From a virus (Duplodnaviria > Heunggongvirae > Uroviricota > Caudoviricetes): DNA of 44,652 bases. Of the stretch, positions 1-44,071 are shown one piece after another; position 1 is the first letter of the stretch, and each line of letters opens with the position of its first letter. The stretch lies in the IMG/VR virus record IMGVR_UViG_3300045988_039442, positions 1-44,652 of that record. The stretch is one strand, 5' to 3'. The translations under genes were made by a program, and so were the position numbers. Below the pieces are notes generated by a model. It had not been told where the DNA came from, did not search any database, and saw nothing but the letters and a program-made list of their open reading frames with translations.

Positions 1-55
1 AGTGACGTCTATGTGGTGCGCGCGTTTTGGGGGTTGGTATGAAATATATATATAT
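1..55. repeat. Terminal direct repeat, left copy (identical to 44598-44652)
   Basis: Exact 55-bp identity between the two window ends; 55 is a common assembler k-mer, so this may be a circularisation overlap. Confidence 0.9.
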
Positions 56-903: not shown

Positions 904-935
904 TTGCACACTAAAATAGAATAGGCTACTATTCA
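904..935 (+). promoter_or_regulatory. Copy of the conserved promoter/operator element, rightward orientation
   Basis: TTGCACACTAAAATAGAATAGGCTACTATTCA closely resembles the 44040-44071 element; sits upstream of the gene at 964. Confidence 0.45.
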
Positions 936-1696: not shown

Positions 1697-1896
1697 CCAG
1701 CATCTTATTTATCTGGGTGCTGTCCGCGGGTCAGATGCAACTAGCGGCAGCAGAAACGTTTTACTCGATGGAGGCGTGCCAGTCAGCGGCACGCGCCGCA
1801 GAGAACGCGCACTTCCTGTTTCAGGGTGACAAGCCCAACGATTCAGAGGTACGAGCTATCTGCTCACCTAAGCGACTTGGTAAACAGGAGAAGTGA
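1693..1896 (+). CDS. hypothetical protein with hydrophobic N-terminus (possible signal or TM segment)
   Basis: ORF track 1678..1896; ATG at 1693 overlaps the upstream stop. Confidence 0.4.
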   Translation: MTSILFIWVLSAGQMQLAAAETFYSMEACQSAARAAENAHFLFQGDKPNDSEVRAICSPKRLGKQEK

Positions 1897-7815: not shown

Positions 7816-9285
7816 ATGTTAACTATGAACGGTCAGAATCAGGGTGTTAAGACAAAACACCGGGAATGGCTGCATCACTTCGATAAATGGCAGAAGGTGC
7901 GACACGCGCTGGAAGGCGACCTTATCCGCTATCTTCGCAACGTCGGGAAGAACGAGCCAGACCCAACCTACGCAGCGCAGCGCCAGGAAGAATACGAGAA
8001 CGGCGCTATCTGCTACAACTTCACTAAACGTACCCTGGCGGGGATGGTCGGTAGCGTCATGCGCAAAGACCCCGAACAGATTATTCCGCCTGAGATGGAG
8101 TACCTGCTACGTAATGCTGACGGTTCCGGTGTCGGGCTGTGGCAGCACGCGCAGGATACGCTGATGGAGATTGACTCGGTAGGTCGTGGCGGGTTGCTGG
8201 TTGATGCCCCAGAGACCGCCGCCGCGACGGCAGCCGAACAGAACGCAGGGTTATTAAACCCGGTCATCGCATTCTATACCGCAGAGAACATCATCAACTG
8301 GCGACTGACACGCGTAGGTTCAGTGAACCGTGTGACTATGGTCGTGCTGCGTGAGGCATGGGAATACTCAGAACCGGGTGCGGAGTTCGAAACCAAGTTT
8401 GGCGAGCAATACCGCGTCCTTGACCTGATTGACGGTCGCTACCGCCAGCGCATTTACCGCTTCGATGCCGAAGGCGGCGCTCAGGACGAAGTAATCGAAA
8501 TATTCCCGGAACTGGGCGAACAGTTGCGCGGTAAAATCCCATTTACGTTCATTGGTGCGAGCAACAACGATGCAACAATTGACGATGCACCTTTGCTGCC
8601 GTTGGCTGAGCTTAATATCGGGCATTTCCGTAACAGCGCAGACAATGAAGAGTCCAGCTTCGTGGTAGGCCAGCCTACTTTGTTCATTGCGCCGGGCGAG
8701 AACATGAGCATGGAACAGTGGAAAGAAGCCAACCCTCACGGCGTGCGTATGGGGTCGCGTTCAGGCCACAACATTGGTTACGGCGGCAATGCGTTTCTGG
8801 TTCAGGCGGGGGAGAACAACCTCGCTAAGCAGAACATGCTGGATAAAGAGAATCAGGCTATCCAGATTGGTGCGCAGCTTATCACCCCGACGCAGCAAAT
8901 CACCGCTGAATCGGCCAGACTGCAACGCGGTGCGGATACGTCAGTTATGGCGACAATCGCGCGGAACGTAAGCATGGCGTACACCGATGCGTTGCGCTGG
9001 GTGGCTGCGATGCTAGGGCTGCGTGAAGGCACAGAGATTGAGTTCAAGCTGAATATGGAGTTCTTCTTGCAACCGATGACCGCCCATGACCGTGCGCAGT
9101 GGATGGCAGACATTAATGCCGGTTTGCTGCCCGCCACTGCTTACTATGCAGCATTGCGTAAGGCTGGCGTAACTGACTGGACGGACGAGGACATTCAGAA
9201 CGCAATCGAGGATGCACCACTGCCGTTAGGTGCTGTTACTCAGGTGGAGGGGGAGATTCCGCAGTCGGCACAGCAACAGGAGTAG
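7816..9285 (+). CDS. portal protein
   Basis: 489-aa protein directly after the terminase genes; RBS AAGAGGA before the ATG. Confidence 0.8.
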   Translation: MLTMNGQNQGVKTKHREWLHHFDKWQKVRHALEGDLIRYLRNVGKNEPDPTYAAQRQEEYENGAICYNFTKRTLAGMVGSVMRKDPEQIIPPEMEYLLRNADGSGVGLWQHAQDTLMEIDSVGRGGLLVDAPETAAATAAEQNAGLLNPVIAFYTAENIINWRLTRVGSVNRVTMVVLREAWEYSEPGAEFETKFGEQYRVLDLIDGRYRQRIYRFDAEGGAQDEVIEIFPELGEQLRGKIPFTFIGASNNDATIDDAPLLPLAELNIGHFRNSADNEESSFVVGQPTLFIAPGENMSMEQWKEANPHGVRMGSRSGHNIGYGGNAFLVQAGENNLAKQNMLDKENQAIQIGAQLITPTQQITAESARLQRGADTSVMATIARNVSMAYTDALRWVAAMLGLREGTEIEFKLNMEFFLQPMTAHDRAQWMADINAGLLPATAYYAALRKAGVTDWTDEDIQNAIEDAPLPLGAVTQVEGEIPQSAQQQE

Positions 9286-9317
9286 CGAAAAAGGCCCCGT
9301 TATGGGGCCTTAGTTTT
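9286..9317. terminator. bidirectional hairpin terminator between convergent portal and DpdA-like genes
   Basis: AAGGCCCC-GTTAT-GGGGCCTT with flanking A and T tracts. Confidence 0.65.
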
Positions 9318-10034
9318 AAGTAGCCATTCCTCTACTGTAGGGGGTTTAACCATCTCTATGGTATGCCTCATTATGGCAGTTCGATGCAGTTTGTCCGTTA
9401 TGTCAGGTAGTCTTGCCTTAGTTTTCGGCACATTTATAGCTACGTTTGTGCTGTCAGCGCTGTCGAAAGGGTAGCGGCTCAAGGCCCGCCCATCCAGCAT
9501 TCTAAGGCCGTGGAGTTTTACATCCAATTTCCTGTTTCTATAAACCGCATTAAATGCCTGGTCCATTCTTTTCCCCCATGACTTAGACCGTATGGCCCTG
9601 TGCGGTCCGCAGCAACCTATCGCTACCCGATTGAACCCACGGCACAGTTTTACCAGTCTTCTTATACTTTCATCGCTGTGCCACACCGGGACCGCCTTAG
9701 ACCTTAACCAATCGGGGACAGTTTCTATTAATGCGTCGTTCTCTTCCTCCGTGCCCTCTATAACGTCCGGTATTATGAACCACTCAATACGACTGAACCA
9801 CTCTCCGACAAAATCATAATATCCTGCCCAGTGGGCGCTCCAGTCTATGTTGTCCGGTGCTTTCTTCCACGTCGAAAAAGCTCCGTTGTCCAACACTAAT
9901 TTACATCTCGTGGCGGCTATCTTTCGTATTTGATCGGGGCGGGCGTATGATACCAGAGCACCACCACCTCGGTACAATGCTTCTATAAGCTCATCCCCAC
10001 CCCAAATAGGGCCTCCGTGGTAATGCACTGTCAT
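9300..10034 (-). CDS. tRNA-guanine transglycosylase/DpdA-like protein (candidate 7-deazaguanine DNA base-exchange enzyme)
   Basis: LVLDNGAFS segment resembles the TGT catalytic-Asp region (LTDSGGFQ) and HGLRMLD a second Asp region; no CxCxxC zinc motif seen; assigned from memory of the fold, not by search. Confidence 0.4.
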   Translation of the reverse strand: MTVHYHGGPIWGGDELIEALYRGGGALVSYARPDQIRKIAATRCKLVLDNGAFSTWKKAPDNIDWSAHWAGYYDFVGEWFSRIEWFIIPDVIEGTEEENDALIETVPDWLRSKAVPVWHSDESIRRLVKLCRGFNRVAIGCCGPHRAIRSKSWGKRMDQAFNAVYRNRKLDVKLHGLRMLDGRALSRYPFDSADSTNVAINVPKTKARLPDITDKLHRTAIMRHTIEMVKPPTVEEWLLKTKAP

Positions 10035-10495
10035 TTAATTTTCCTCAGCAAGAACGACCATAAAGCTCCGCCAAAAACCTTAGCCACGAATTGGCCCAGT
10101 ACGACTAGCGGCATGAAGGCCCCGAAAGCTATTAGTGGGAAAATAAAAGAGTCCACCGCCGAGGCCGCTGTATTACTTACGTTTGACTTAACCAACCACT
10201 TTTTATTGATCAGTGCCTGGTAGACAACGGCATCTATGGCGGCTGCAAAAGCGAAGGCAACAACGCTTGCCATAGCAATCTTGCCGGTTGCCGGGTTTAT
10301 GGAGAAACTTATAATGCCAGTTACTAGTATCAGTATGAATATTTTTTGTACACCAATCCTCTCGTGCAACTTATCTCTTATTACGAAATCAAGCCCAATA
10401 AGTAGAAAGGCGTTTACCGGTGTCGCCCACGGACCAAACACAGTTACCGAAAAGTTAGCGGCGCATATCGCCGCTACGTAAATTGCATACATCAT
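10031..10495 (-). CDS. small polytopic membrane protein, possibly YhhQ/COG1738-type queuosine-precursor transporter
   Basis: Four to five TM helices; stop overlaps the start of the downstream DpdA-like gene (ATGA); SNVSNTAASAVDSFIFPLIAF resembles a DUF165 motif as I recall it. Confidence 0.35.
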   Translation of the reverse strand: MMYAIYVAAICAANFSVTVFGPWATPVNAFLLIGLDFVIRDKLHERIGVQKIFILILVTGIISFSINPATGKIAMASVVAFAFAAAIDAVVYQALINKKWLVKSNVSNTAASAVDSFIFPLIAFGAFMPLVVLGQFVAKVFGGALWSFLLRKIK

Positions 10496-10499
10496 CTTA

Positions 10500-10658
10500 T
10501 CACCCCCAGTTACGGGCAGCGTTTGCGGCTAGTGCAATCGTTTCTTCAAAAATGTAGTCTAGTTTAACAATCTGGCGCATTTTACGGCGGAACTTACGTT
10601 TGTCTCCGTTTTTCGAACTTAAATTAGTATTTACGGTAATTCTTTTTGCTAATTTCAT
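10500..10658 (-). CDS. small basic protein (52 aa), first gene of the leftward operon
   Basis: ATG at 10658 preceded by AGGAGACG; the same leader is found at 12463 and 43623. Confidence 0.4.
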   Translation of the reverse strand: MKLAKRITVNTNLSSKNGDKRKFRRKMRQIVKLDYIFEETIALAANAARNWG

Positions 10659-10682
10659 TTTTCGTCTCCTGTTTAAGTTAAC

Positions 10683-10714
10683 TGAATAGTACCCTATTAT
10701 ATTGGTGTCTGCAA
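10683..10714 (-). promoter_or_regulatory. conserved promoter/operator element, copy 1, leftward
   Basis: TGAATAGTACCCTATTATATTGGTGTCTGCAA; minus strand reads TTGCAGAC ... TATAAT; contains the AATAG-N4-CTATT palindrome. Confidence 0.55.
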
Positions 10715-10758: not shown

Positions 10759-11802
10759 ATGAGCTTACTTACATCCCTAATCAGCCACCAGATATGGCTG
10801 CAACGCGCCGCGTCCGGTGAGGTGAAAGACCTCGCGCCGTTCCTTCAGGAGATGAGGGACGAAATCAAACGGCAGGTGCTGTTATTCGGCGACGACGGGC
10901 GTAGCACCGCGCGACTGAATAAACTGTTACGCGACCTGGAAGAAGCACTGAGCGGACTTACAGGCGACTGGCAAACAAAGCTGACAGAAGACCTTAAGGA
11001 ACTAGCGGCGTATGAGGCGGAGTGGAATGTAAAAACGCTGACGGCTAGCGTTAACGCGGAATTTGTTACACCTACCGCTGAACAGGTGTGGTCCGCTGCC
11101 GAGTTTCAACCGCTCTCATTAAGCGACAAACCAGTTGATTTCACCAAGCTGATGTCGGGCTGGAGTGAAACAGAAGTCGCGCGCCTTGTAACCGGCGTTA
11201 AAATGGGTTTCGTACAAGGCCAAACCACACGGCAGATTGTTAAAAGCGTAGTCGGCGCTGGCGGACTGGCAGACATCTCGGAACGAAACGCAGCTACAGT
11301 AATACGTACTGCGCTGTCTCATGTGTCCAACGAAGCCCGTAACGAGACGTACCGCCAGAACGACGACATCATTGAGAAATACGAAATAGTCGCCACACTC
11401 GACAGCCGTACATCAACAATATGCCGTAGCCTGGACGGGCAGGAATACGAAATCGGCAAAGGTCCGAGACCCCCTTTCCATCCTAACTGCAGAACGACCA
11501 CTGCGCCCGTAATCAGTTCCGAGTTCGATTTCCTGGATAAAGGAGCGAAACGCGCAGCTAAGGGCGCAGAAGGCGGTACTCAGGTAAGCGCGGACACAAC
11601 CTATTACGAGTTCCTTAAACAACAACCGGCGTGGTTTCAGGATGAAGCGATCGGCCCGGTGCGGGGTAAGATTTTCCGCAACAGCGGTATATCGCCGGAA
11701 GAGTTTCGCGTAATATCTGTAGATGGTTTCGGGAATCCGCTCACGCTTAAGCAGATGGCGGAACTCGATAAACGTGTTGCTGATTATCTGAAAGGAGAAT
11801 AA
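10759..11802 (+). CDS. head morphogenesis protein (minor head protein, SPP1 gp7/Mu F-like)
   Basis: Position after the portal; about 348 aa; ATG at 10759 with RBS ACAGGAGGG. Confidence 0.6.
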   Translation: MSLLTSLISHQIWLQRAASGEVKDLAPFLQEMRDEIKRQVLLFGDDGRSTARLNKLLRDLEEALSGLTGDWQTKLTEDLKELAAYEAEWNVKTLTASVNAEFVTPTAEQVWSAAEFQPLSLSDKPVDFTKLMSGWSETEVARLVTGVKMGFVQGQTTRQIVKSVVGAGGLADISERNAATVIRTALSHVSNEARNETYRQNDDIIEKYEIVATLDSRTSTICRSLDGQEYEIGKGPRPPFHPNCRTTTAPVISSEFDFLDKGAKRAAKGAEGGTQVSADTTYYEFLKQQPAWFQDEAIGPVRGKIFRNSGISPEEFRVISVDGFGNPLTLKQMAELDKRVADYLKGE

Positions 11803-12263
11803 TGATGGGCTTTTTCAAAGTAACTGATGTTCCGTCACGTCGCGTAGTCCAGTACGCCCGCGTGTCTGGCTCTGGTGAGAACGCGGTGTTTATTGAAGAT
11901 GAAAGTGTACTAGGTACACCGGTAGACGATATGCCGTTTGCAGATAAAACCGGTATTGCACTGCCTGCGGCGGGTATGCTTTACGAGATTCCGTATCTGG
12001 AAGACGCGGGCGACGTGTATTTCTCTGTGCAACCGAAAGACGCGGAACTGGTAGACGGAAGCGCGGTAATCACGGTAGAAGTTAAGGCGGGTAAAGCTCC
12101 GTACGCTCTGACCTGGTACAAAGACGGGAAGGAAGTTGTCAACGCGCCAGAAGAGGCTTTATCTCTGACAGTAAACGCGGTTGGTGAATACTTCGTTAAA
12201 GTTACTGATGCTGATGGTGTAGAGGCCGTCAGTAAAGCGGCGAAGGTAACTAAGCCGGAATGA
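11802..12263 (+). CDS. hypothetical virion-associated protein with Ig-like segment
   Basis: ORF track entry; the WYKDGKEV stretch is Ig-like. Confidence 0.45.
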   Translation: MMGFFKVTDVPSRRVVQYARVSGSGENAVFIEDESVLGTPVDDMPFADKTGIALPAAGMLYEIPYLEDAGDVYFSVQPKDAELVDGSAVITVEVKAGKAPYALTWYKDGKEVVNAPEEALSLTVNAVGEYFVKVTDADGVEAVSKAAKVTKPE

Positions 12264-12290
12264 TAAAAGGCCCCGAAAGGGGCCTTAGCT
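12263..12290. terminator. bidirectional hairpin terminator
   Basis: AAGGCCCC-GAAA-GGGGCCTT. Confidence 0.6.
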
Positions 12291-12463
12291 TATACATCTC
12301 TACTCGCTAGATAATCGCAGCGGGCTATCGCTAAATATAAGCTAGCGTATGCGCTATCAGCTTTAGCATGGGTAAACCCAGAAATCATTACGTAGTACAC
12401 TCCTTTATCGTTTAGAACCCAGTATTTACCGTTTTCGTGCATTATGTCTTTTTCTTTGAACAT
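12290..12463 (-). CDS. hypothetical small protein (57 aa)
   Basis: ATG preceded by AGGAGA within the same conserved leader as at 10658; below the ORF-track cut-off. Confidence 0.4.
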   Translation of the reverse strand: MFKEKDIMHENGKYWVLNDKGVYYVMISGFTHAKADSAYASLYLAIARCDYLASRDV

Positions 12464-12487
12464 TTTTCATCTCCTGTTTAAGTTAAA

Positions 12488-12519
12488 TGAATAGTACCCT
12501 ATTATATTGGTGTCTGCAA
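12488..12519 (-). promoter_or_regulatory. conserved promoter/operator element, copy 2, leftward
   Basis: Identical over 32 bp to 10683-10714. Confidence 0.55.
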
Positions 12520-12585
12520 ACTATTTATTTACCTATTCCGGTTATTCCACCCAATTGTAAATGTTGGAATAAACTATTCGAATAG

Positions 12586-12729
12586 TTGACTTTTCACTAA
12601 AAATGTGCTAAGCTCCACCTGAGCTTGTGAAGTATGAACAAGCGACCGCGGTGCGGCAGGAGAACGGAGCGGTGCGTTAGCACTGAGTGTAGTGTCGCTG
12701 CCCGCATTCGGAAGGGCCATACTCTATTG
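12586..12729 (+). ncRNA. conserved structured non-coding element, paralogue A
   Basis: About 80% identical to 43731-43873; own TTGACT-N17-TAAGCT promoter; indels not in multiples of 3; hairpins with compensatory changes. Confidence 0.45.
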
Positions 12730-12792
12730 CTTGTGTAAAAAGTAGCTGGTTTACTGAGATTACGCCGTTTCTATGTTTAAATGATAAGGACT

Positions 12793-12820
12793 AGCGCCCC
12801 GCTTTAAGGCGGGGCTTTAC
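12793..12820 (+). terminator. rho-independent terminator
   Basis: GCCCCGC-TTTAAG-GCGGGGC followed by TTTACTT. Confidence 0.55.
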
Positions 12821-12839
12821 TTATCGAGAAAGGAGAAAC

Positions 12840-13226
12840 ATGAATCTTAAAGCAACTGTCGTAGCGGGAGCATGTTTCATCATCCTGGCTTACGCACACG
12901 GCATCTACCAGTACCGCAGCGGCTGGAACGAAGGCCGCGCTAATCTTGTTTCTCAGCAACAGCAGAAAGCACAGGTTGAGCTGGCGAAGAAAACACAACG
13001 GCAGCAGCAGGATGAATCAAAGGCTGCAGCCGCTGACAACGAAGGCAAGACGAAATCAGAGGTGATCACCCGTGAAGTCGTTAAGTACATTAAAACGCCT
13101 GGCCGCAGCGTGTGCACTTTCGACGATGCTCGCGTCCTGCTCAAGTCCCGCGCCGTCGCCAACGCCAACTCCATCCCCGGATATGACGATGATGCAGCCG
13201 CCGTGCAAACTGGCGCAGCCAAGTAG
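12840..13226 (+). CDS. i-spanin (Rz-like)
   Basis: N-terminal TM segment, Gln-rich coiled-coil periplasmic region; RBS AGGAGAAAC; contains an overlapping lipoprotein gene in another frame. Confidence 0.6.
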   Translation: MNLKATVVAGACFIILAYAHGIYQYRSGWNEGRANLVSQQQQKAQVELAKKTQRQQQDESKAAAADNEGKTKSEVITREVVKYIKTPGRSVCTFDDARVLLKSRAVANANSIPGYDDDAAAVQTGAAK

Positions 13227-19566: not shown

Positions 19567-19596
19567 AACTAAGGCCCCTTTCGGGGCCTTTTCTTA
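19566..19596. terminator. bidirectional hairpin terminator
   Basis: AAGGCCCC-TTTC-GGGGCCTT followed by TTCTT. Confidence 0.65.
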
Positions 19597-19759: not shown

Positions 19760-20329
19760 TCACGCATTTGGATAAATCCCCAGGATTCTATTAGCAATCG
19801 CAGCCGCTGTTAATGTAATCTCGCCTGGGATGACCACAACGTCATGGCATACCGCACCATCAATATCGTACAGGTAACCACGACTATCCCCGTCAAACGT
19901 ATAGCCGTCTCTGTGCAAGCGAACGATTCTTACATCATGCCCCGCGGCGACGATGGGGGCCACTTCACTGGCGAATCCACCGTCGGACACTACAAAAACT
20001 TCGTCGCCGTCGGACAAGTTTCCGGCAAGATACTTACCGAAATAATCGTCACCGAATACCGGTTTAATGAATTGCTCAGAAATGGCAATCATGAACTGAC
20101 GACGTGACAACCCATTAAGAAAACCCTCTGGCTTTTCTTTCCGCGCCCTGTCGTCGTAGCCGTCGAGAAACTCGTGGTAAGTATCCGGGCCTAACGCTGC
20201 AAGAGCGATATTGAACATTGGATTCTTGAAACTGGTAGTCGCATTCGCAAAGCCCATTTCTACCAGCGCCATAGCGAGTGTGTCTTTTCCGCAGCCCGCA
20301 GGACCATTAAGAATGATTACCTTAGCCAT
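19760..20329 (-). CDS. P-loop nucleotide kinase, dNMP-kinase-like (T4 gp1-like GKDT Walker A)
   Basis: N-terminal VIILNGPAGCGKDT; small (189 aa); last gene of the leftward operon. Confidence 0.5.
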   Translation of the reverse strand: MAKVIILNGPAGCGKDTLAMALVEMGFANATTSFKNPMFNIALAALGPDTYHEFLDGYDDRARKEKPEGFLNGLSRRQFMIAISEQFIKPVFGDDYFGKYLAGNLSDGDEVFVVSDGGFASEVAPIVAAGHDVRIVRLHRDGYTFDGDSRGYLYDIDGAVCHDVVVIPGEITLTAAAIANRILGIYPNA

Positions 20330-20814
20330 TATTTATTGCTCCCGTGTGGTTTTAAGTGAGTAGAGTTCCCGTTACAGTCGTATTCAGTAACCGCGTGCGT
20401 CGTGATTCCTAAGCCACGGAAATGCTTTATCACCGCTGGGGAGTCATCGAACGCACACAAGATTCTTTCCAGCCCGATAGCGCGCAACACCTCTTCTTTA
20501 ATTACGATGTCTTTTCTGTTGTCGTGTTTGCTGCGCATGATTAGCTGATAAAATTCGACGCGGTGGCGCTGCAACCACATTCTGGTTTCTTTTTCTGCGT
20601 CATCACTGCGACCGGTTAAAATAATAGCGGCGTATCGCCGATTAAGGGCGTTACACAGCTCGATATTATCTCTAATTGGTTCATCATCTTTGCACGCCAT
20701 GTTAAATGGCTTCCACGCCCATGTTTCGTTGTAGTTATCTTTCGGCAGAAGGTGCAAACGATGTGTCCCATCCGCCAATGTCCCGTCTAAATCGAAAATT
20801 ACAATATCTTTCAT
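20329..20814 (-). CDS. HAD-family phosphatase resembling the polynucleotide kinase 3'-phosphatase domain
   Basis: DLDGTL motif at the N-terminus; the RKDIVIKEEV ... FDDSPAVI segment resembles the T4 Pnk phosphatase domain from memory. Confidence 0.5.
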   Translation of the reverse strand: MKDIVIFDLDGTLADGTHRLHLLPKDNYNETWAWKPFNMACKDDEPIRDNIELCNALNRRYAAIILTGRSDDAEKETRMWLQRHRVEFYQLIMRSKHDNRKDIVIKEEVLRAIGLERILCAFDDSPAVIKHFRGLGITTHAVTEYDCNGNSTHLKPHGSNK

Positions 20815-21941
20815 CCCAACATCTCCGGTGAAATAGTTAAACGTGCAACCTCGCCGTATTCGGCGCTATAAGTAATTACATTTGCACTGCGTCCCGACAT
20901 CCACCCACCGCGAGAAGCATATGCATCTTTCGCCGCGAGAGTGCGATGCTGCTCAACAATCATGTTACGGCTTTCTACAATCTTCTGGTGGTGCAGGTGC
21001 CCAACGTGGGCGTAGCTATAAACGCTCTCGCCGAACGCTTTGCGGAACTTAGCAATCATAACCGGTTCGATAGCGTCAAATCGCGCCTTATGCCCGTGGT
21101 GAAAGAACAATGTCGTTTTGCCGTGTTGCACCATCTTGTAAACATCCGGCGATGTATCCACTGTCACTCGGCTGTCGTTTGAGTATAAAGTCGTGAACAT
21201 TTCCGCCAGCCATACAGACCCTACAGGGTCGTGATTTCCTTGCACGATAAGCAAGCGAACAGATTTATGCTTAACCAGTGCCATATCAACAACACGGCGA
21301 ACCATACGAATCATGTAGCGGACAAGTTTCTGGTAGCGAGTGTCTGCGTCCAACACATGACGCGACTCAGGGGTAACGGCATCAAGACTATCGAAGTGTG
21401 CGAAGTCCCCCAGCAGGTTAATAACCCCAGTTCCAGCATCTGGTGCTTTCTGAAACGCCGCATCGAACCAACGGGAGAACAAGTCTTCAGCAATCTTCAT
21501 ATCCCAGTCGTCGCCGCTCTCGTCGGCCCAGGCCAGCATACCGAGATGGAAATCAGATACAGTGTAAAGATTGAGTAGTTTATCGTCACGTTTGGTGCGA
21601 GCGGCTTTAACAGGTGCAACCGGCGTAATCTCCGACTTCATACCTTCGATTACGGCTTTCATTAATTCTACCTGACGTTCGGCATCGGTGTCGGTCTTAA
21701 CCCATTGCAACTTAGTATTGCCGAACTCGTCCACCAGAGACGACGTGCCTTTAATCTTGTAGCCGTCCGGAACAAGGTGGCTAACGTCCAGCCCGTGGCC
21801 TACGCCTTTCTTTGCCAGCTTCGCTTTACGGATTCTGATAACGCGGTCTGAGACGCCGTATTTACGAGCTATATCGATATTCCTCACACCGGCGTTCAAT
21901 TCTTCCTGTAACTGCTCGTCGGTTATTTTCTTCCGGGCCAT
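20811..21941 (-). CDS. calcineurin-like metallophosphoesterase with N-terminal HTH domain
   Basis: Motifs SDFHLG, GDFAHF, GNHD, HHGH and GHLHH; RBS ACGAGGAAG. Confidence 0.6.
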   Translation of the reverse strand: MARKKITDEQLQEELNAGVRNIDIARKYGVSDRVIRIRKAKLAKKGVGHGLDVSHLVPDGYKIKGTSSLVDEFGNTKLQWVKTDTDAERQVELMKAVIEGMKSEITPVAPVKAARTKRDDKLLNLYTVSDFHLGMLAWADESGDDWDMKIAEDLFSRWFDAAFQKAPDAGTGVINLLGDFAHFDSLDAVTPESRHVLDADTRYQKLVRYMIRMVRRVVDMALVKHKSVRLLIVQGNHDPVGSVWLAEMFTTLYSNDSRVTVDTSPDVYKMVQHGKTTLFFHHGHKARFDAIEPVMIAKFRKAFGESVYSYAHVGHLHHQKIVESRNMIVEQHRTLAAKDAYASRGGWMSGRSANVITYSAEYGEVARLTISPEMLG

Positions 21942-22006
21942 GCTTACTTCCTCGTGTTTAGGATTTGTCCTATTTAACCATAGTGCATTCCTTTAAATAA
22001 AGGCGA

Positions 22007-22333
22007 CTATTTACTTTCCGCGCCTATCGCCCACCCGGTCATTACCATTTGCAGACGGGTAGCCGTTAGTAGGCTGTAAAACGCGTCTCCGTTTTTCTCT
22101 ACCGAACGTATTACCGTGTATGTTACGGCTTGAGGAGGTAAGCCCGATTTACCAACCTCTACGGCAGCCTCACACTCGCCAACTGTAGAGTCCTTAAATG
22201 CCTTTACGATAGTAGTGTCGGCTTTCTCAAGCACGCCAGAAGTCATAAGAACAGATTCACTAAATACCTGTTCGCACGGGGACCCAAAAGTAGCAAAAGA
22301 CATAAACCCCAGAGCCAATACTAATTTACGCAT
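22007..22333 (-). CDS. small secreted/periplasmic protein with signal peptide
   Basis: N-terminal MRKLVLALGFMSFATFG signal-like segment; first gene after the conserved promoter. Confidence 0.5.
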   Translation of the reverse strand: MRKLVLALGFMSFATFGSPCEQVFSESVLMTSGVLEKADTTIVKAFKDSTVGECEAAVEVGKSGLPPQAVTYTVIRSVEKNGDAFYSLLTATRLQMVMTGWAIGAESK

Positions 22334-22358
22334 AATTATTTCCTCAGTAAGTTACAGG

Positions 22359-22390
22359 TGAATAGTACCCTATTATATTGGGGTGTGCAA
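22359..22390 (-). promoter_or_regulatory. conserved promoter/operator element, copy 3, leftward
   Basis: TGAATAGTACCCTATTATATTGGGGTGTGCAA; drives the four-gene leftward operon 22333 to 19760. Confidence 0.55.
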
Positions 22391-31367: not shown

Positions 31368-31396
31368 AACTAAGGCCCCAAACGGGGCCTTTTCTC
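31368..31396. terminator. bidirectional hairpin terminator between the convergent structural and replication blocks
   Basis: AAGGCCCC-AAAC-GGGGCCTT followed by TTCT. Confidence 0.65.
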
Positions 31397-31533
31397 TACT
31401 CTCCTGATAACTTCTCCAGTATAAACGCCAGTTGCGCATTAGCGGCGTCTCTCTGTTGCCGTAGTCGTAGAACCTCTTCTTCGAGTTCCTTGATACGTTT
31501 TTGCAATGCCGGAATCGGGGCCATGATGTTCAT
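31396..31533 (-). CDS. hypothetical small coiled-coil protein (45 aa)
   Basis: ATGA overlap with the upstream gene; below the ORF-track cut-off. Confidence 0.3.
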   Translation of the reverse strand: MNIMAPIPALQKRIKELEEEVLRLRQQRDAANAQLAFILEKLSGE

Positions 31534-31709
31534 TTCTTAAAATCCTTATACAATTCTGCGACACCGGCAGCCAACAGCATCATTCCCGCGCCCACCATCA
31601 CACCCGCATCAAAGGTTTTTCCGTCCAAGATACCGCACAATAATAATACCGACCCAGGCCCCACTCGGCAAAATAGCCACAAAACTATTAATGCTGTATT
31701 AAATTTCAT
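31530..31709 (-). CDS. small membrane protein (about 59 aa)
   Basis: ATGA overlap with the helicase stop; two hydrophobic segments. Confidence 0.35.
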   Translation of the reverse strand: MKFNTALIVLWLFCRVGPGSVLLLCGILDGKTFDAGVMVGAGMMLLAAGVAELYKDFKK

Positions 31710-33130
31710 TTCTTACCTCGTCTCTTCATGTAATTAAGCAACTCTTCCTGCACCGATTTCTTCTCGTCTGTACGCGCGGCAACAACCTCGTCCAGCGTGT
31801 CTTTAGCGACGATGTGGTAGAGGAACACCGGTCGTTCGTGGCCTGCCTGTTTCTGGCGGACCGGGCCTATACGTTCGACGACCTGCAAATAGTGCTCAAG
31901 GTTCCAGCCCTGCGAAATAAACGCCAGATGATGCCCGCCGTCCTGTAAATTCAAACCATGACCGGCTGACGCAGGATGTACGCATAGGATTTCGATTTCA
32001 CCACGGTTCCACGCTTCCATCTGCTTATTACCCTTAGCGCCTTTAGCAAACGCCTGTGCTTGCGGGAATCGCTTAAGGATGCGCTCCAGTTCGTGCTTGA
32101 ACTGATAGGCCACCAGCAACGGCGCGCCCTGTAACTCCTCAACAATGGACTCAAGCGCATCCAGTTTCGTATCGTGCACTTTCTCCCAGTCTTTCGTTGC
32201 TTCGCCATCCGGTCCTGACACGTACACGGCACCAGAAGCAATCTGCAGGCACTTCGACGTCTTCGCTGCCGCGTTAGCCGCTTCAACTTCTCCGCTCTCC
32301 AGTTCCGCGAATAACTTTTCCTCCATATCTATGTACGCCTGACGCGCTTTCTTCGGCAGGTCGATTTCAACTGGCACAATAATCGGAGCTTCGCAACCAA
32401 ACCACTCGGCGGCGTCAATAGTCAGGCTGATGTCCTTCATCTTCTGGTGAATTTCATTATCTGCTCCCGGGCGTGCGTGGTACTCCCGCGCCATAGCCGA
32501 TTTGCCTTTTTGCACCGAGTTAAACCAGCGGTCGGTGAACGCCGTGTATGAAGAACCGAGGCGCTCGCCTGCGTCTATAAACCAGTTCTGACCCCACAAG
32601 TCCTTGAGGCCGTTCGGTGACGGTGTTCCCGTAAGGTTTATCAGCCTCTTAACATTTCTAAATGCTACTTTACTAAGCGCCTTTGCCCTCTTGCTCCCGC
32701 CTGAACGGCTACGGAATGACTTAAGCTTCGTGCTTTCATCGTTAACTATCACAGTAAAGGGCCAGTCATCTACTCCGTAATAGTCGATAAGCCACTCTAT
32801 AACCTCATAGTTAATACAAATTACATTAGCGTCTGACTCCAGCGCAGCGATGCGGCGCTTTTCTGAACCGGTCGCGTCTATGACGCGCAGACACGGGAAA
32901 CCCCACTTAGTTTGTTCCGCGGGCCATGTACCTGACGCAACGCGCAGCGGGGCGAGTATTAACACGCGGTCGTCATCATTAAGTTGGCCGTTGCGGAACA
33001 GTCGGTTTAATGCCCACAGTACGCTGCCAGTCTTCCCGGCGCCCATGCTCGCCCATATGTTGCAGCGATTGTGCCGCAACATGAACGAGGTCATGAGCTT
33101 CTGGTATTCGCGCCTTTGAAACTTAGACAT
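31706..33130 (-). CDS. SNF2/DEAD-like superfamily 2 helicase
   Basis: Walker A GAGKTGS with downstream helicase motifs; ATG at 33130 chosen 2 nt after the methyltransferase stop (ORF track extends to 33448). Confidence 0.75.
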   Translation of the reverse strand: MSKFQRREYQKLMTSFMLRHNRCNIWASMGAGKTGSVLWALNRLFRNGQLNDDDRVLILAPLRVASGTWPAEQTKWGFPCLRVIDATGSEKRRIAALESDANVICINYEVIEWLIDYYGVDDWPFTVIVNDESTKLKSFRSRSGGSKRAKALSKVAFRNVKRLINLTGTPSPNGLKDLWGQNWFIDAGERLGSSYTAFTDRWFNSVQKGKSAMAREYHARPGADNEIHQKMKDISLTIDAAEWFGCEAPIIVPVEIDLPKKARQAYIDMEEKLFAELESGEVEAANAAAKTSKCLQIASGAVYVSGPDGEATKDWEKVHDTKLDALESIVEELQGAPLLVAYQFKHELERILKRFPQAQAFAKGAKGNKQMEAWNRGEIEILCVHPASAGHGLNLQDGGHHLAFISQGWNLEHYLQVVERIGPVRQKQAGHERPVFLYHIVAKDTLDEVVAARTDEKKSVQEELLNYMKRRGKK

Positions 33131-33806
33131 GATTAGCCTCGTAAACTGCTTTTGCGAAACCGCGCGGAGTAAGGCTGCGGATTGTTTTTGTTCTGGCGCT
33201 CTTTCCGCCGAGTTTAGCCCAACCAGGGTTATCTCCACTATCCGCGCTAACCACGGCAACGTCTGGCATAACAAACCCATTGCCCGTCCACAGGCACGTC
33301 TTTTTAACATACGCATCTCGCGCTGGAATAACATCCGGGAACATTGGATGTGCGTCGCCTTCCGGTAAATATCCACCGTATTCGTACGGATTGAACACGT
33401 AGTCTGGCTTACGCCATAGAGACGAAAGAACGCTAACAGGGTTTTCAATCATATAAGGTACGTTGTATTTTTTAGCCAGACGCGCCGCCACTTTGCATGT
33501 AATTACGGCCTCTACCTGAAAAGTTGGGTTATTCTTCCGCTTCGTTTCAAAATGCGCCGCACCGCTAACGGCTAAATCTGTGCACGGAGGGAACGCAAAA
33601 ATAATATCCGGCGCAACGCCGAAGTCGAATCTATTATCAATCCACGCGTTTATATAATGGATATTTTCATGTACAACTTTTGCACCCAATCGTGCGTAGT
33701 CGCCGTGGTTAGCGCCGTCGTAGTTGAAACAATAGCAAGTATGGCCTGCTTCCGCCCACGGTTGGGCCATAAGGCCCGAACCGTCAAACAAGGACCAGAC
33801 AATCAT
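33123..33806 (-). CDS. short DNA (cytosine-5)-methyltransferase-like protein
   Basis: Motif I LFDGSG, motif IV FPPC, motif VI ENPV, C-terminal GNG; only 227 aa, so the target-recognition region is minimal. Confidence 0.55.
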   Translation of the reverse strand: MIVWSLFDGSGLMAQPWAEAGHTCYCFNYDGANHGDYARLGAKVVHENIHYINAWIDNRFDFGVAPDIIFAFPPCTDLAVSGAAHFETKRKNNPTFQVEAVITCKVAARLAKKYNVPYMIENPVSVLSSLWRKPDYVFNPYEYGGYLPEGDAHPMFPDVIPARDAYVKKTCLWTGNGFVMPDVAVVSADSGDNPGWAKLGGKSARTKTIRSLTPRGFAKAVYEANHV

Positions 33807-33994
33807 TTCGCCACCAGAACTAACTCTTTACGCCCGAACGCCGTAACGTTACCGGTTACATCTTCGATAACCAGTTTACCGTTCGACTCGACGTACACCG
33901 TATCAACGGCGACAGGACGACGTGTCTTAACGTTGAAAATCATGTCACCCGGTACGATGTCACGTGCTGGTTTGCGGTCATATTCGTGTTTCAT
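33803..33994 (-). CDS. hypothetical protein
   Basis: ORF track entry; stop overlaps the methyltransferase start. Confidence 0.45.
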   Translation of the reverse strand: MKHEYDRKPARDIVPGDMIFNVKTRRPVAVDTVYVESNGKLVIEDVTGNVTAFGRKELVLVAK

Positions 33995-34033
33995 TTCTCA
34001 ATTCCTTATAGTTAAGGCCCCGAAGGGCCTGTA

Positions 34034-34288
34034 TTAGTTAGATAATTCGGCTTGAACTTGCTTAATAAGTTCTCCAGCCGTTGTGAAGTCTACAGACAGC
34101 CCTTTAGCGACGTCTTCCGCAAGCACTTTGCGGCCAACTGACCCGAAACCCAGGATACGGTTTACTTCCGAAACCTTCATAGACCATGAGTAATTAACTG
34201 ACGCCCCTGTGTATTTACCGATGCGAACAGATGAATCGATTGAACAGAGAATCATGGTGTTTACTGACAGTTGAAGTTCGATAGTCAT
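34034..34288 (-). CDS. hypothetical protein
   Basis: ORF track entry; co-oriented with the replication block. Confidence 0.45.
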   Translation of the reverse strand: MTIELQLSVNTMILCSIDSSVRIGKYTGASVNYSWSMKVSEVNRILGFGSVGRKVLAEDVAKGLSVDFTTAGELIKQVQAELSN

Positions 34289-34307
34289 TTCATAATTCCT
34301 TATATTG

Positions 34308-34604: not shown

Positions 34605-34753
34605 GACCGCAGAATCCAGGTAATGAAAGCCCCTCCTAGAACGGCAACACCGACAAACTGAAAGAACAGGCCATAACAGAACATCGCGGCTATTCCCGCA
34701 CCGAGCAACAGTGCGAGCATGGTTACGACTGCCCCAAATACAAACATCATCAT
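34601..34753 (-). CDS. small membrane protein (50 aa)
   Basis: ATGA overlap with the VRR-NUC start; hydrophobic throughout. Confidence 0.35.
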   Translation of the reverse strand: MMMFVFGAVVTMLALLLGAGIAAMFCYGLFFQFVGVAVLGGAFITWILRS

Positions 34754-43444: not shown

Positions 43445-43623
43445 TTCACGTTCTCCTTAATCCACGCTTCAACTTTATTACGGTCAAATGTACCCGGTAA
43501 ACGGCGGCCCATAACCTTAATACAGCAATCCGGGAATTTACCACTGCGCAACCAGTTATTAATTGTCTGACGGGTCACCCCGATACGTTCTGCTACTTCA
43601 TTCTGGGTCATGTAATGCTGCAT
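43441..43623 (-). CDS. small HTH DNA-binding protein (AlpA/excisionase-like HTH_17), first gene of the replication block
   Basis: MTQNEVAERIGVTRQTINNWL motif; ATG at 43623 preceded by the conserved AGGAGA leader. Confidence 0.55.
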   Translation of the reverse strand: MQHYMTQNEVAERIGVTRQTINNWLRSGKFPDCCIKVMGRRLPGTFDRNKVEAWIKENVK

Positions 43624-43730
43624 TTTTATATCTCCTGTTTGTTTGGTGAAGCTGAGTATAGGATAGCGGGAATGTAAAAGCAACCAAAACGCCACACAAA
43701 GTTACTAAGATACAAAAGATGCTACTGGTA

Positions 43731-44039: not shown

Positions 44040-44071
44040 TTGCACACCCCAATATAATAGGATACTATTCA
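44040..44071 (+). promoter_or_regulatory. conserved promoter/operator element, rightward copy driving the early block
   Basis: TTGCACACCCCAATATAATAGGATACTATTCA is the reverse complement of the 22359-22390 element; about 30 bp upstream of the RBS at 44091. Confidence 0.55.

What the first reader, a model, noticed from the sequence alone, without database searches (positions are those of the whole stretch)
10655..10682. Same 5' leader and RBS reused by the first genes of three leftward operons
Read on the minus strand, the sequence upstream of the start codons at 10658 and 12463 is identical (CTTAAACAGGAGA) and at 43623 nearly so (AAACAGGAGA), with the ATG 7-8 nt after AGGAGA. The three downstream proteins are unrelated in sequence. 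This points to duplication or recombination of a promoter-plus-leader cassette that recruits new cargo genes.
Basis: seen in the sequence. Interest (0 to 1): 0.4.

Follow-up and report, generated by a model that had tools for sequence, protein, structure and literature searches.

The report
Shared promoter cassette on swappable phage genes
Two small backward-facing gene units in this E. coli phage genome start with the same 59-base promoter-plus-ribosome-site module and end with the same kind of terminator, and related phages show that whole units, including a DNA-modification module, sit at either of two fixed slots; this is a clean example of a known kind of phage gene shuffling.

Summary
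The window is a complete Kagunavirus-like (Guernseyvirinae) phage genome.

**Observation.** It holds for two of the three sites and is larger than reported. Window 10656-10714 and 12461-12519 are 57/59 identical. On the minus strand each reads: -35 TTGCAG, 17 nt, -10 TACTAT, a roughly 20-nt unstructured 5'UTR, AGGAGA, ATG. The third site (43623) has a different promoter, belongs to a conserved core gene, and shares only AAACAGGAGA.

**What the two copies are.** They head self-contained leftward units (promoter, cargo, GC-rich hairpin terminator) lying antisense in the rightward head-gene cluster.
- Slot 1 lies between the portal and MuF-like genes.
- Slot 2 lies between the Hoc-like and spanin genes.

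**Evidence from 76 related loci and GenBank records.**
- The slots are empty or filled.
- The promoter fronts 17 first-gene families, and the exact leader fronts 9.
- Four families occur in either slot.
- The window's slot-1 unit (small protein, YhhQ-like transporter, DpdA-like transglycosylase) lies in slot 2 of a related contig at 93% identity. Homology ends at the -35 hexamer and at the terminator.

**Verdict.** These are morons exchanged at conserved regulatory ends, as with PeSL cassettes in T4-like phages. This is a new member of a known kind, of moderate interest.

The parts
10656..10714 (-). Cassette copy 1 (slot 1). -35 TTGCAG at 10714-10709; 17-nt spacer; -10 TACTAT at 10691-10686; palindrome core AATAGGGTACTATTCA at 10698-10683; predicted transcription start near 10679; AGGAGA at 10670-10665; ATG at 10658-10656.
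   Evidence: The 5'UTR plus the first codons fold at 0 kcal/mol. Promoter activity is inferred from sequence, not measured.
12461..12519 (-). Cassette copy 2 (slot 2), 57/59 identical to copy 1. -35 at 12519-12514; -10 at 12496-12491; palindrome core at 12503-12488; AGGAGA at 12475-12470; ATG at 12463-12461.
10500..10658 (-). Slot-1 cargo gene 1: a 52-aa basic protein of unknown function.
   Evidence: No Pfam, PHROG or NCBIfam hit. Its only GenBank phage homologue (55% identity) lies directly upstream of the VUT gene in Flyfo siphovirus Tbat1_6, so it travels with the VUT-DpdA module.
10031..10495 (-). Slot-1 cargo gene 2: a 154-aa VUT/YhhQ-like putative queuosine-precursor (preQ0) transporter.
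   Evidence: Pfam PF02592 Vut_1, E=2.5e-9, above the curated cut-off. phrog_4899. Weak matches, below cut-off, to TIGR00697 and PRK11212 preQ0/preQ1 transporter models.
9300..10034 (-). Slot-1 cargo gene 3: a 244-aa DpdA-like DNA guanine transglycosylase of the 'DpdA-only' phage group.
   Evidence: phrog_887 'queuine tRNA-ribosyltransferase', E=2.9e-84. 66% identity to the PEAT2 protein and 60% to the Salmonella phage 7-11 protein, both annotated the same way. Phage 7-11 is named as a DpdA-only phage in PMC6884629. No Pfam, NCBIfam or PDB sequence hit.
9291..9311 (.). Hairpin terminator AAGGCCCCGTTATGGGGCCTT at the convergent junction of the portal gene and the slot-1 unit. It is the 3' boundary of the slot-1 unit.
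   Evidence: (family D5). Homology with L088 ends at window 9289.
12290..12463 (-). Slot-2 cargo: a 57-aa protein (phrog_20712, function unknown).
   Evidence: The same gene sits in slot 1 of locus L038, with homology confined to the stretch from -35 to the terminator.
12267..12286 (.). Hairpin terminator AAGGCCCCGAAAGGGGCCTT at the convergent junction of the Hoc-like gene and the slot-2 unit. It is the 3' boundary of the slot-2 unit.
43621..43683 (-). Third site; not a member of the cassette family. Promoter TTGCTT (43683-43678), 17 nt, TATACT (43660-43655); AAACAGGAGA at 43640-43631; ATG at 43623-43621 of a 60-aa HTH_17 protein.
22332..22390 (-). Further member of the promoter family (TTGCAC-N17-TACTAT, same palindrome, different leader). 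It sits in front of a conserved 108-aa gene that begins the leftward kinase/exonuclease operon.
   Evidence: The orthologous site in K1H is at 13041.
904..935 (+). Further member of the promoter family (TTGCAC-N17-TACTAT) with a B-type leader, facing rightward.
44040..44071 (+). Further member of the promoter family (TTGCAC-N17-TACTAT) with a B-type leader CTTATCGAAACGAG, facing rightward.

Best explanation
**What the units are.** The two near-identical 59-nt sequences are the 5' ends of two morons. Morons are self-contained transcription units added to a phage genome. These two lie antisense inside the rightward head-gene cluster of a virulent Kagunavirus-like phage. Each unit consists of:
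- a host-RNA-polymerase-type promoter (TTGCAG, 17 nt, TACTAT) whose -10 region overlaps an AATAG-N4-CTATT palindrome shared by at least eight promoter regions of the genome;
- a roughly 20-nt unstructured, A-rich 5'UTR with AGGAGA 6 nt before the ATG;
- one to three low-GC cargo genes;
- a GC-rich hairpin terminator of the AAGGCCCC-N4-GGGGCCTT family, which also ends the converging structural gene.

**How cargo moves.** The 5' module and the 3' hairpin are the same at both docking sites, and the same across Guernseyvirinae phages. The docking sites are portal|MuF (slot 1) and Hoc|spanin (slot 2). Homologous recombination between these short regulatory sequences, during co-infection or between the two slots, replaces, adds or removes whatever lies between them. 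New cargo is then immediately expressed from a ready-made promoter and ribosome-binding site.

**What the window carries.** Slot 1 holds a small-protein/YhhQ-like/DpdA-like module, predicted to put 7-deazaguanine into phage DNA using host or imported preQ0. Slot 2 holds a 57-aa gene of unknown function.

**Shown versus inferred.** Shown: the repeat itself; presence or absence of units in relatives; many unrelated cargoes behind one promoter and leader; the same cargo in either slot; homology breakpoints at the -35 hexamer and at the terminator. Inferred: promoter and terminator activity; timing of expression; homologous recombination as the mechanism; a phage repressor acting on the palindrome; the biochemical function of the cargo.
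For: - **Repeat.** 57/59 identity between window 10656-10714 and 12461-12519, with a third partial copy at 22332-22390.
- **Promoter family.** The core AATAGNNNACTATTCA gives 14 matches at up to 2 mismatches against 0.71 expected. AATAG-N4-CTATT gives 11 matches at up to 1 mismatch against 1.2 expected. The same sites exist at orthologous positions in phage K1H.
- **Variable slots.** The portal-to-MuF gap ranges from 9 to 1110 nt in 74 related loci, is 113 nt or less in 33 of them, and is 1477 nt in the window. The Hoc-to-spanin gap ranges from 321 to 3369 nt. Empty slots keep a hairpin but have no promoter.
- **Cargo diversity.** In the two slots, 17 first-gene families follow the promoter. 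The A-type leader (AACTTAAACAGG, up to 2 mismatches) precedes 9 of them. Four families occur in both slots.
- **GenBank annotation.** Genes under the cassette are annotated as RusA-like resolvase, sliding-clamp-like protein, adenine methyltransferase or hypothetical protein. The clamp-like gene is in slot 1 of fBC-Eco01 and in slot 2 of fFiEco02.
- **Breakpoints.** The window's slot-2 unit matches the L038 slot-1 unit only from the -35 hexamer to the hairpin. Window 10714-9289 matches L088 3321-4746 at 93.3% identity. That L088 stretch sits between flanks that match the window's slot-2 flanks, and slot 1 of L088 is empty.
- **Crossover position.** In L088 the -35 region reads TTGCGCAC, a variant otherwise seen only at slot 2. 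Slot 1 always reads TTGCAGAC in relatives. This places the 5' crossover inside the conserved promoter core.
- **Base composition.** Cargo GC is 39-47%, against 51-55% for the flanking head genes.
- **Leader structure.** The leader RNA is unstructured, at 0 and -1.9 kcal/mol for the two copies.
- **Prior report.** The motif tgAATAGTa-ccTATTat-T was found independently, in 7 copies, in Kagunavirus fBC-Eco01 (PMC9825357).
Against: - No transcription data were available. The hexamers are only moderate matches to the sigma-70 consensus (TTGCAG 3/6, TACTAT 4/6), and the consensus scanner did not call them.
- The one Kagunavirus time-course transcriptome found (PMC12645636) is too coarse to time these genes.
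- Exchange is inferred from static comparisons. Rates, direction and the recombination enzymes are unknown.
- The 3' homology (about 20-27 nt of hairpin) is short for homologous recombination.
- Occupied and empty slot-1 alleles also differ in the roughly 45 nt between the promoter and the MuF start codon, so at least some events replaced the whole intergenic region.
- Genomes with both slots filled do not usually carry identical cassettes. The near-identity within this window is therefore not a general rule of concerted evolution.
Confidence: 0.8

Rival explanations
1. Functional convergence only. The two sequences are alike because each was independently selected to be the phage's optimal promoter plus ribosome-binding site. 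No cassette moves, and cargo differences reflect ordinary insertions and deletions.
For: The same promoter core also fronts conserved core genes (22374-, 920+, 44056+), so it is clearly under functional constraint. The leader is short and unstructured, as expected of any strong translation start.
Against: Convergence cannot explain whole units, cargo included, at 93% identity in different slots with slot-specific flanks. It also cannot explain four cargo families found in both slots, or one cargo family (the clamp-like gene) carrying either the A or the B leader.
Confidence: 0.05
2. All three sites, including 43623, derive from one duplicated leader cassette.
For: AAACAGGAGA followed by an A-rich spacer is shared. 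Four copies of the 10-mer exceed chance (0.07 expected). Sites 12463 and 43623 both lie divergently next to copies of a second repeat, the rightward promoter plus structured RNA element.
Against: The promoter at 43623 is different (TTGCTT-N17-TATACT). It has no palindrome and no TTAACTT. In relatives the sequence upstream of 43623 is tied to one conserved HTH gene and changes only with that gene's allele. The fourth copy of the 10-mer, at 1882, is an internal operon ribosome-binding site with no promoter.
Confidence: 0.05
3. The units are inserted by a dedicated mobile-element mechanism (homing endonuclease, site-specific recombinase or integron-like capture) and not by general homologous recombination at the regulatory repeats.
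For: There are two fixed docking sites with presence/absence polymorphism. Homing-type elements exist nearby in relatives: an HNH endonuclease between MuF and Hoc in fFiEco02, and MuF genes about 800 nt longer in L066-L068 and L071.
Against: None of the cargo sets examined encodes an integrase, and only a few could be nucleases. No integrase is annotated in K1H. Breakpoints coincide with the repeated promoter and hairpin, not with a target-site duplication.
Confidence: 0.07
4. The motif is a promoter for a phage-encoded RNA polymerase, as labelled from PHIRE output in the fBC-Eco01 paper, and not a host sigma-70 promoter.
For: PMC9825357 lists seven copies of tgAATAGTa-ccTATTat-T as phage-RNA-polymerase promoters. 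The strict conservation of the spacer is unusual for plain sigma-70 promoters.
Against: No RNA polymerase gene is annotated in K1H. Every large ORF of the window lines up with an annotated structural or replication gene of K1H. The motif has a -35-like and a -10-like hexamer at 17-nt spacing. In three further sites the palindrome sits in the spacer of consensus TTGACA-N17/18-TATAxT promoters on the opposite strand, which fits an operator better than a polymerase recognition site.
Confidence: 0.03

Closest known systems
Morons of tailed phages (first defined in HK97/HK022; reviewed in PMC3594210)
   Same: An independent transcription unit with its own promoter and terminator. It sits between genes of a late structural operon, is present or absent among close relatives, and has a GC content different from its neighbours (definition).
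   Different: The host phage is virulent, so the classical rationale of expression from a repressed prophage does not apply. The promoter, leader and terminator are not idiosyncratic to each moron. They are one standard set shared by two docking sites and by many phages, so the units behave as interchangeable cassettes.
PeSL (promoter-early stem-loop) regulatory cassettes of T4-like myoviruses (Arbiol et al. 2010, PMC2839356; Comeau et al. 2014, PMC4122927)
   Same: Repeated sigma-70-like promoter modules that end in a Shine-Dalgarno sequence and a start codon. They are associated with variable, mostly unknown genes, and insertion, deletion and replacement breakpoints between relatives fall in the repeated regulatory motif. 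This points to recombination-mediated modular shuffling (searches compared).
   Different: In a PeSL a stable GC-rich stem-loop terminator is built into the promoter motif, with about 50 copies per genome clustered in hyperplastic regions. Here the promoter carries only a 5-bp AT-rich palindrome, the GC-rich hairpin is a separate repeat at the other end of the cargo, there are 5-9 copies per genome, and exchange is seen at two fixed slots in a 45-kb siphovirus. Mini-circle intermediates were not testable.
PHIRE-predicted 'phage promoters' of Kagunavirus genomes (fBC-Eco01, PMC9825357; Golestan, PMC7203180)
   Same: It is the same motif. tgAATAGTa-ccTATTat-T is the reverse complement of ATAATAGGGTACTATTCA, reported at seven copies per genome.
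   Different: Those papers list the motif only as predicted promoters, attributed to a phage RNA polymerase that is not encoded. In the passages I searched for promoter and terminator they do not describe the attached leader, the paired terminators, the two slots or cargo exchange. I did not read either paper in full.
T7 gene 10 leader / epsilon translational enhancer (TTAACTTTA; cited in PMC10557345)
   Same: The leader contains TTAACTTAAA just upstream of a strong Shine-Dalgarno sequence, in an A-rich unstructured context.
   Different: Only TTAACTT (7 of 9 positions) matches. With a -10 at 10691-10686, the predicted transcription start (near 10679) falls inside this string, so most of it is probably not transcribed. 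This is a resemblance only.

Membership tests
Moron | An extra DNA segment that is present in some close relatives and absent in others, at the same position | tested here: met
   Slot 1 is empty (113 nt or less) in 33 of 74 related loci and filled with 150-1110 nt in the others; it is 1477 nt in the window. Slot 2 ranges from 321 to 3369 nt.
Moron | Own promoter | tested here: inconclusive
   A conserved TTGCAG-N17-TACTAT motif sits directly upstream of each unit and is absent from empty slots. Activity was not measured, and the hexamers match the consensus at only 3/6 and 4/6 positions (one search did not call them).
Moron | Own terminator | tested here: met
   GC-rich hairpins at 9291-9311 and 12267-12286 were called terminator-like and belong to a repeated family (6 matches against 0.16 expected). 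Met at sequence level only.
Moron | Base composition different from the neighbouring genes | tested here: met
   Cargo GC is 0.39-0.47 against 0.51-0.555 for the portal, MuF and Hoc genes; the genome average is 0.509.
Moron | Expressed from a repressed prophage to benefit the lysogen | not testable with these tools
   No integrase is annotated in the closely related K1H genome, and the fBC-Eco01 paper reports no integrase or lysogeny genes. This classical feature therefore probably does not apply.
PeSL cassette (T4-like phages) | A repeated sigma-70-like promoter motif ending in a Shine-Dalgarno sequence and the start codon of a variable gene | tested here: met
   compared with the definition.
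PeSL cassette (T4-like phages) | A stable stem-loop terminator/attenuator embedded within or next to the promoter boxes | tested here: not met
   The promoter holds only the 5-bp AT-rich palindrome AATAG-N4-CTATT. The GC-rich hairpin lies at the far end of the cargo.
PeSL cassette (T4-like phages) | Insertion, deletion and replacement breakpoints between relatives coincide with the motif | tested here: met
   homology starts at the -35 hexamer and ends at the hairpin.
PeSL cassette (T4-like phages) | Tens of copies concentrated in hyperplastic regions; formation of mini-circles | tested here: not met
   There are 5 promoter-class copies plus 3-4 palindrome-only sites per genome. Mini-circles cannot be tested with these tools.
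Sigma-70 promoter | TTGACA and TATAAT-like hexamers 16-18 nt apart, upstream of a gene | tested here: inconclusive
   The spacing is 17 nt and conserved. Hexamer matches are 3/6 and 4/6, below the scanner's threshold. The strict conservation of the spacer suggests an additional factor.
Promoter for a phage-encoded RNA polymerase (label used in PMC9825357) | The phage encodes its own RNA polymerase | tested here: not met
   None is annotated in K1H, and no unassigned large ORF exists in the window.
T7 g10 epsilon enhancer | TTAACTTTA within the transcribed leader, upstream of the Shine-Dalgarno sequence | tested here: not met
   The leader has TTAACTTAAA (7 of 9 positions matching) and the string spans the predicted transcription start.
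DpdA (phage 7-deazaguanine DNA transglycosylase), for the cargo at 9300-10034 | Sequence membership in the TGT/DpdA superfamily and relatedness to phage DpdA proteins named in the literature | tested here: met
   phrog_887, E=2.9e-84. 60% identity to the protein of Salmonella phage 7-11, which PMC6884629 lists as a DpdA-only phage. No direct Pfam TGT hit. The fold was not modelled.
DpdA (phage 7-deazaguanine DNA transglycosylase), for the cargo at 9300-10034 | 7-Deazaguanine actually present in virion DNA | not testable with these tools
   This needs LC-MS/MS of phage DNA.

The most novel reading that the evidence does not exclude
The standard promoter-leader module and the standard hairpin together act as dedicated docking sequences of a genus-wide plug-and-play system. 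Guernseyvirinae phages would use it to trade accessory genes at high frequency, between two slots and between co-infecting phages. Such cargo includes DNA-modification genes (Dam-type methylases, the DpdA/YhhQ module), which are plausibly anti-restriction functions. Every captured gene would automatically fall under one phage regulator, which binds the AATAG-N4-CTATT palindrome. The late operon would tolerate the inserted terminators because its RNA polymerase is made terminator-resistant by the conserved structured leader RNA found at 12615-12736 and 43760-43881.
Probability: 0.3. Interest if true: 0.6.

Novelty: new member of a known kind. Interest (0 to 1): 0.4.

Why it matters
- **Where accessory genes sit.** The result shows where accessory genes enter a widely used group of therapeutic coliphages and Salmonella phages (Kagunavirus, Jerseyvirus), and suggests how. 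There are two defined slots, and their standard promoter, ribosome-binding site and terminator make any inserted gene expressible.
- **Practical uses.** The slots and the 59-nt module give natural insertion sites and expression signals for phage engineering. They also give a simple way to find the variable accessory genes in new genomes. The slot contents can differ between otherwise similar phages (Dam-type methylases, DpdA/YhhQ, clamp-like proteins).
- **DNA modification.** The window adds a DpdA/YhhQ module to this genus. No GenBank phage record searched had a homologue above 66% identity. This predicts 7-deazaguanine-modified DNA in a Kagunavirus.
- **Concept.** It extends PeSL-type shuffling by regulatory repeats from T4-like myoviruses to small siphoviruses.

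Tried and rejected
- **Rfam.** A scan of the whole window at gathering thresholds found nothing. A permissive scan of 12540-12860 gave only chance-level hits. No tRNA or tmRNA genes were found.
- **Consensus promoter scan.** It did not call the cassette promoter, so the promoter assignment rests on conservation and spacing.
- **IMG/VR exact-pattern scan.** A search for promoter plus leader returned only 9 loci with uneven flanks. I replaced it with a protein-anchored fetch around the MuF gene.
- **Protein identification.** Pfam, NCBIfam and PDB sequence searches did not identify the 244-aa cargo protein. Its identity rests on PHROGs and on homology to annotated or published phage DpdA proteins. 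No structure was modelled.
- **Third site.** I rejected it as a cassette member after aligning its upstream region and checking relatives.
- **Epsilon enhancer.** I rejected it as an explanation of leader conservation: it matches only partly and largely precedes the predicted transcription start.
- **Concerted evolution.** I considered gene conversion between the two slots within a genome. Other genomes with both slots filled mostly carry different leader alleles, so I make no such claim.
- **Literature.** I found no description of cassette exchange in Guernseyvirinae. The only time-course transcriptome could not be mapped to these genes. The 2015 'Jerseyvirinae' paper is not in the library, so prior mention there cannot be excluded.
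Full report
**Identity of the window.**
Bases 1-55 repeat at 44598-44652, so the window is a complete, circularly closed genome of 44,597 bp. It is about 89-90% identical over most of its length to Kagunavirus phages (subfamily Guernseyvirinae) such as K1H, M01 and fFiEco02. Synteny with the annotated K1H genome gives the following map:
- Rightward: small genes, lysis genes and terminase (about 44100 across the end of the sequence to 7540), then portal (7816-9285), MuF-like head morphogenesis (10759-11802) and Hoc-like decoration (11802-12263).
- Rightward, continued: spanins (12840 onward), scaffold, capsid and tail genes up to 19566.
- Leftward: a kinase/exonuclease block (19760-22333).
- Rightward: tail genes up to 31367.
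- Leftward: the replication block (31396-43623).

**Checking the observation.**
On the minus strand the quoted strings are present before the ATGs at 10658, 12463 and 43623. Read 5' to 3' on the minus strand, the repeat contains:
- TTGCAG;
- a 17-nt spacer, ACACCAATATAATAGGG;
- TACTAT;
- TCA(G/T)TTA;
- a short leader, ACTTAAACAGGAGA(C/T)GAAAA;
- ATG.

With the -10 at 10691-10686, transcription should begin near 10679, which gives a 5'UTR of about 20 nt. That leader plus the first codons has essentially no predicted structure (0 and -1.9 kcal/mol, no better than shuffles). An open, A-rich initiation region with a strong Shine-Dalgarno sequence would be expected to look like this.

The third site differs. 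Its promoter is TTGCTT-N17-TATACT, it lacks the palindrome and the TTAACTT stretch, and only AAACAGGAGA plus an A-rich spacer is shared. The 10-mer occurs four times against 0.07 expected. All four copies are ribosome-binding sites, one of them inside an operon at 1882. Four of 17 AGGAG-type gene starts are preceded by AAAC. In relatives the sequence upstream of the 43623 gene stays attached to that one conserved HTH gene and changes only with the gene's allele. The three proteins are indeed unrelated.

**A promoter family, not a private duplication.**
The core AATAGNNNACTATTCA occurs 14 times at up to 2 mismatches against 0.71 expected.
- Five sites share the full TTGCA(C/G)-N17-TACTAT layout: 920+, 10698-, 12503-, 22374- and 44056+.
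- At 37902, 40500 and 34326 the same AATAG-N4-CTATT palindrome lies on the other strand, in the spacer of consensus TTGACA-N17/18-TATA(T/G)T promoters for leftward replication genes.
- A further copy, at 40545, precedes a 71-aa DicA/Cro-like HTH gene.
- The sites are at orthologous positions in K1H.

The motif was reported before as a PHIRE 'phage promoter', tgAATAGTa-ccTATTat-T, with seven copies in Kagunavirus fBC-Eco01 (PMC9825357). There it was attributed to a phage RNA polymerase that these phages do not encode. Conserved half-sites occur in two different promoter contexts while the central four bases vary. I take this to suggest an operator for a dimeric phage regulator; that is inference only.

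**The units are morons in two variable slots.**
Each cassette heads a leftward unit lying antisense in the rightward head-gene cluster and ending at a GC-rich hairpin.
- The hairpins are at 9291-9311 and 12267-12286. They belong to an AAGGCCCC-N4-GGGGCCTT family found at five convergent gene junctions.
- I fetched 76 related loci around the MuF gene and measured the two junctions. The portal-to-MuF gap (slot 1) is 113 nt or less in 33 of 74 loci and up to 1110 nt in the others; the window's 1477 nt is the largest. The Hoc-to-spanin gap (slot 2) ranges from 321 to 3369 nt.
- Empty slots keep a hairpin but have no leftward promoter. Filled slots have hairpin, cargo, leader and promoter.
- Cargo GC is 0.39-0.47, against 0.51-0.555 for the neighbouring head genes.

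These are the defining properties of morons (PMC3594210), except that this phage lineage appears to be virulent.

**One module, many cargoes, two slots.**
- Across the loci, 17 different first-gene families follow the promoter in the two slots. The A-type leader of the finding precedes nine of them.
- At least two other leader alleles exist. One of them (ATCGAAACGAG) resembles the leaders of the core promoters at 44056 and 920. One cargo family, a clamp-like protein of about 173 aa, is found with either leader.
- Four families occur in both slots: the clamp-like protein, a Dam-type methylase, a 94-106-aa protein, and the window's own 57-aa slot-2 gene.
- GenBank annotation agrees. Genes under the cassette are called RusA-like resolvase, sliding clamp, adenine methyltransferase or hypothetical protein. 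The clamp-like gene is in slot 1 of fBC-Eco01 and in slot 2 of fFiEco02. Jerseyvirus S100 has the methylase in slot 2.

**Breakpoints.**
The window's slot-2 unit aligns with the slot-1 unit of L038 from the -35 hexamer through the gene to the hairpin, and the flanks are unrelated.

The window's own slot-1 unit gives the clearest case. A protein 96% identical to its last gene lies on a 42-kb Logan contig (L088) whose slot 1 is empty. Window 10714-9289 matches L088 3321-4746 at 93.3% identity. That stretch runs exactly from the -35 hexamer to the hairpin. On both sides of it, L088 matches the window's slot-2 flanks at 94% and 90%.

The -35 region in L088 reads TTGCGCAC, a variant otherwise seen only at slot 2. 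Slot 1 reads TTGCAGAC in all relatives. The 5' crossover therefore falls inside the conserved promoter core.

I infer homologous recombination between the repeated regulatory ends, as proposed for PeSL cassettes of T4-like phages (PMC2839356 and PMC4122927). No recombination experiment exists. The 3' homology is short. Some events evidently replaced the whole intergenic region, because occupied and empty slot-1 alleles also differ just upstream of MuF.

**Cargo of the window.**
Slot 1 carries three genes:
- a 52-aa basic protein;
- a 154-aa VUT/YhhQ-like membrane protein (PF02592 above its cut-off);
- a 244-aa protein matching phrog_887 'queuine tRNA-ribosyltransferase' at E=2.9e-84.

The third protein is 66% identical to that of Pectobacterium phage PEAT2 and 60% identical to that of Salmonella phage 7-11. 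Hutinet et al. list phage 7-11 among 76 phages that encode DpdA but no preQ0 synthesis genes, and they note that some phages also encode YhhQ homologues (PMC6884629).

The same three-gene order occurs in an unrelated siphovirus. In another phage type the transporter-like and DpdA-like genes lie next to the primase gene. The module was therefore imported whole. No GenBank phage record had a homologue above 66% identity, so I found none in a Kagunavirus. The predicted function is insertion of preQ0-type 7-deazaguanine into phage DNA as protection from restriction. That prediction is inference from homology. Slot 2 carries a 57-aa protein of unknown function (phrog_20712).

**A second repeat seen in passing.**
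Sites 12463 and 43623 each lie back to back with a copy of another conserved element. On the plus strand this element has:
- a strong promoter, TTGACT-N14-TGCTAAGCT with an extended -10 (12586-12614 and 43731-43759);
- a conserved sequence of about 120 nt (12615-12736 and 43760-43881);
- in copy 1, about 60 nt further on, a hairpin terminator (12796-12815) and then the spanin gene.

A covariance model built from Kagunavirus copies also found divergent copies at the same position in Jerseyvirus-like loci. Across 16 distinct sequences, 93% of cells pair, against 30-45% when the pairing partners are slid. Fourteen of 28 pairs show changes on both sides, and no shuffle of 500 reached this (for the MAFFT alignment). 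The alignment was fitted to the model, so it leans towards that structure.

The structure is a short hairpin followed by a long interrupted stem-loop, and then a conserved single-stranded tail, UUCGGAAGGGCC. The promoter and the downstream hairpin are conserved in the Jerseyvirus-like loci as well. Rfam has no matching family.

Both copies stand at the heads of the rightward lysis and structural operons, and those operons must read through the moron hairpins. From my own knowledge of HK022 put RNA and lambda PR'-tR', I suspect a cis-acting antitermination leader. This is a hypothesis only.

**Verdict.**
It is best described as standardised morons that are exchanged through conserved promoter-leader and terminator ends, at two docking sites flanking the MuF and Hoc genes. 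Morons, PeSL-type shuffling, the repeated motif itself and DpdA-only phages are all known. What is new is their combination in this lineage, the direct cross-slot evidence, and the DpdA/YhhQ cargo in a Kagunavirus. I rate it a new member of a known kind, with interest 0.4.

Noticed in passing
window 12586-12815 and 43731-43881 (+ strand): Two copies of a strong extended -10 promoter (TTGACT-N14-TGCTAAGCT), each followed by a conserved structured RNA of about 120 nt: a hairpin, a long interrupted stem-loop, and a UUCGGAAGGGCC tail. In copy 1 a terminator at 12796-12815 then precedes the spanin gene. The element is also present, in diverged form, in Jerseyvirus-like loci. Fourteen of 28 pairs show compensatory changes. 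There is no Rfam match. It is possibly a put-like antitermination leader for the late operons.
   Followed up: partly
window 920, 10685, 12490, 22361, 34328, 37902, 40500, 40545, 44056: The palindrome AATAG-N4-CTATT occurs at 8 exact and 3 near sites against 1.2 expected. It overlaps the -10 of TTGCA-type promoters, or sits in the spacer of TTGACA-type promoters on the other strand. Two copies flank the divergent region next to a 71-aa DicA/Cro-like HTH gene (40589-40804). It looks like an operator for a phage regulator.
   Followed up: partly
window 9300-10658 (- strand): A three-gene module: a 52-aa protein, a VUT/YhhQ-like transporter and a DpdA-like transglycosylase. It predicts 7-deazaguanine modification of the DNA. 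No GenBank phage record searched had a homologue above 66% identity. A related metagenomic contig (L088) carries the module in the other slot.
   Followed up: partly
window 1-55 and 44598-44652: An exact 55-bp repeat at the two ends of the sequence. The window is a complete, circularly closed assembly of a 44,597-bp genome.
   Followed up: yes
window 12572-12587: A perfect 16-bp palindrome, AACTATTCGAATAGTT, abuts the -35 of the rightward promoter of copy 1. It uses the same GAATAG half-sites as the operator-like motif but in the opposite arrangement. It is absent from copy 2.
   Followed up: no
window 9291-9311, 12267-12286, 19571-19590, 31372-31391, 37178-37197: A family of near-identical hairpins, AAGGCCCC-N4-GGGGCCTT, at convergent gene junctions: 6 matches against 0.16 expected.
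   Followed up: partly
L130 (fFiEco02) 1422-1991; L066-L068 and L071, MuF gene: Relatives carry further variable elements that the window lacks. One is an HNH homing endonuclease between the MuF and Hoc genes. Another is a MuF gene about 800 nt longer than usual. The Snoke genome announcement reports a large intein in the capsid morphogenesis gene of that related phage (PMC6776784 abstract), which suggests these longer MuF genes hold an intein.
   Followed up: no
window 1882-1891 (+ strand): A fourth copy of AAACAGGAGA, at the ribosome-binding site of an internal gene (ATG at 1896) in a rightward operon, with no promoter attached.
   Followed up: no
literature: PMC9825357: The fBC-Eco01 genome paper attributes the AATAG...CTATT motif to a phage-encoded RNA polymerase. 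No such gene is annotated in the closely related K1H genome.
   Followed up: partly
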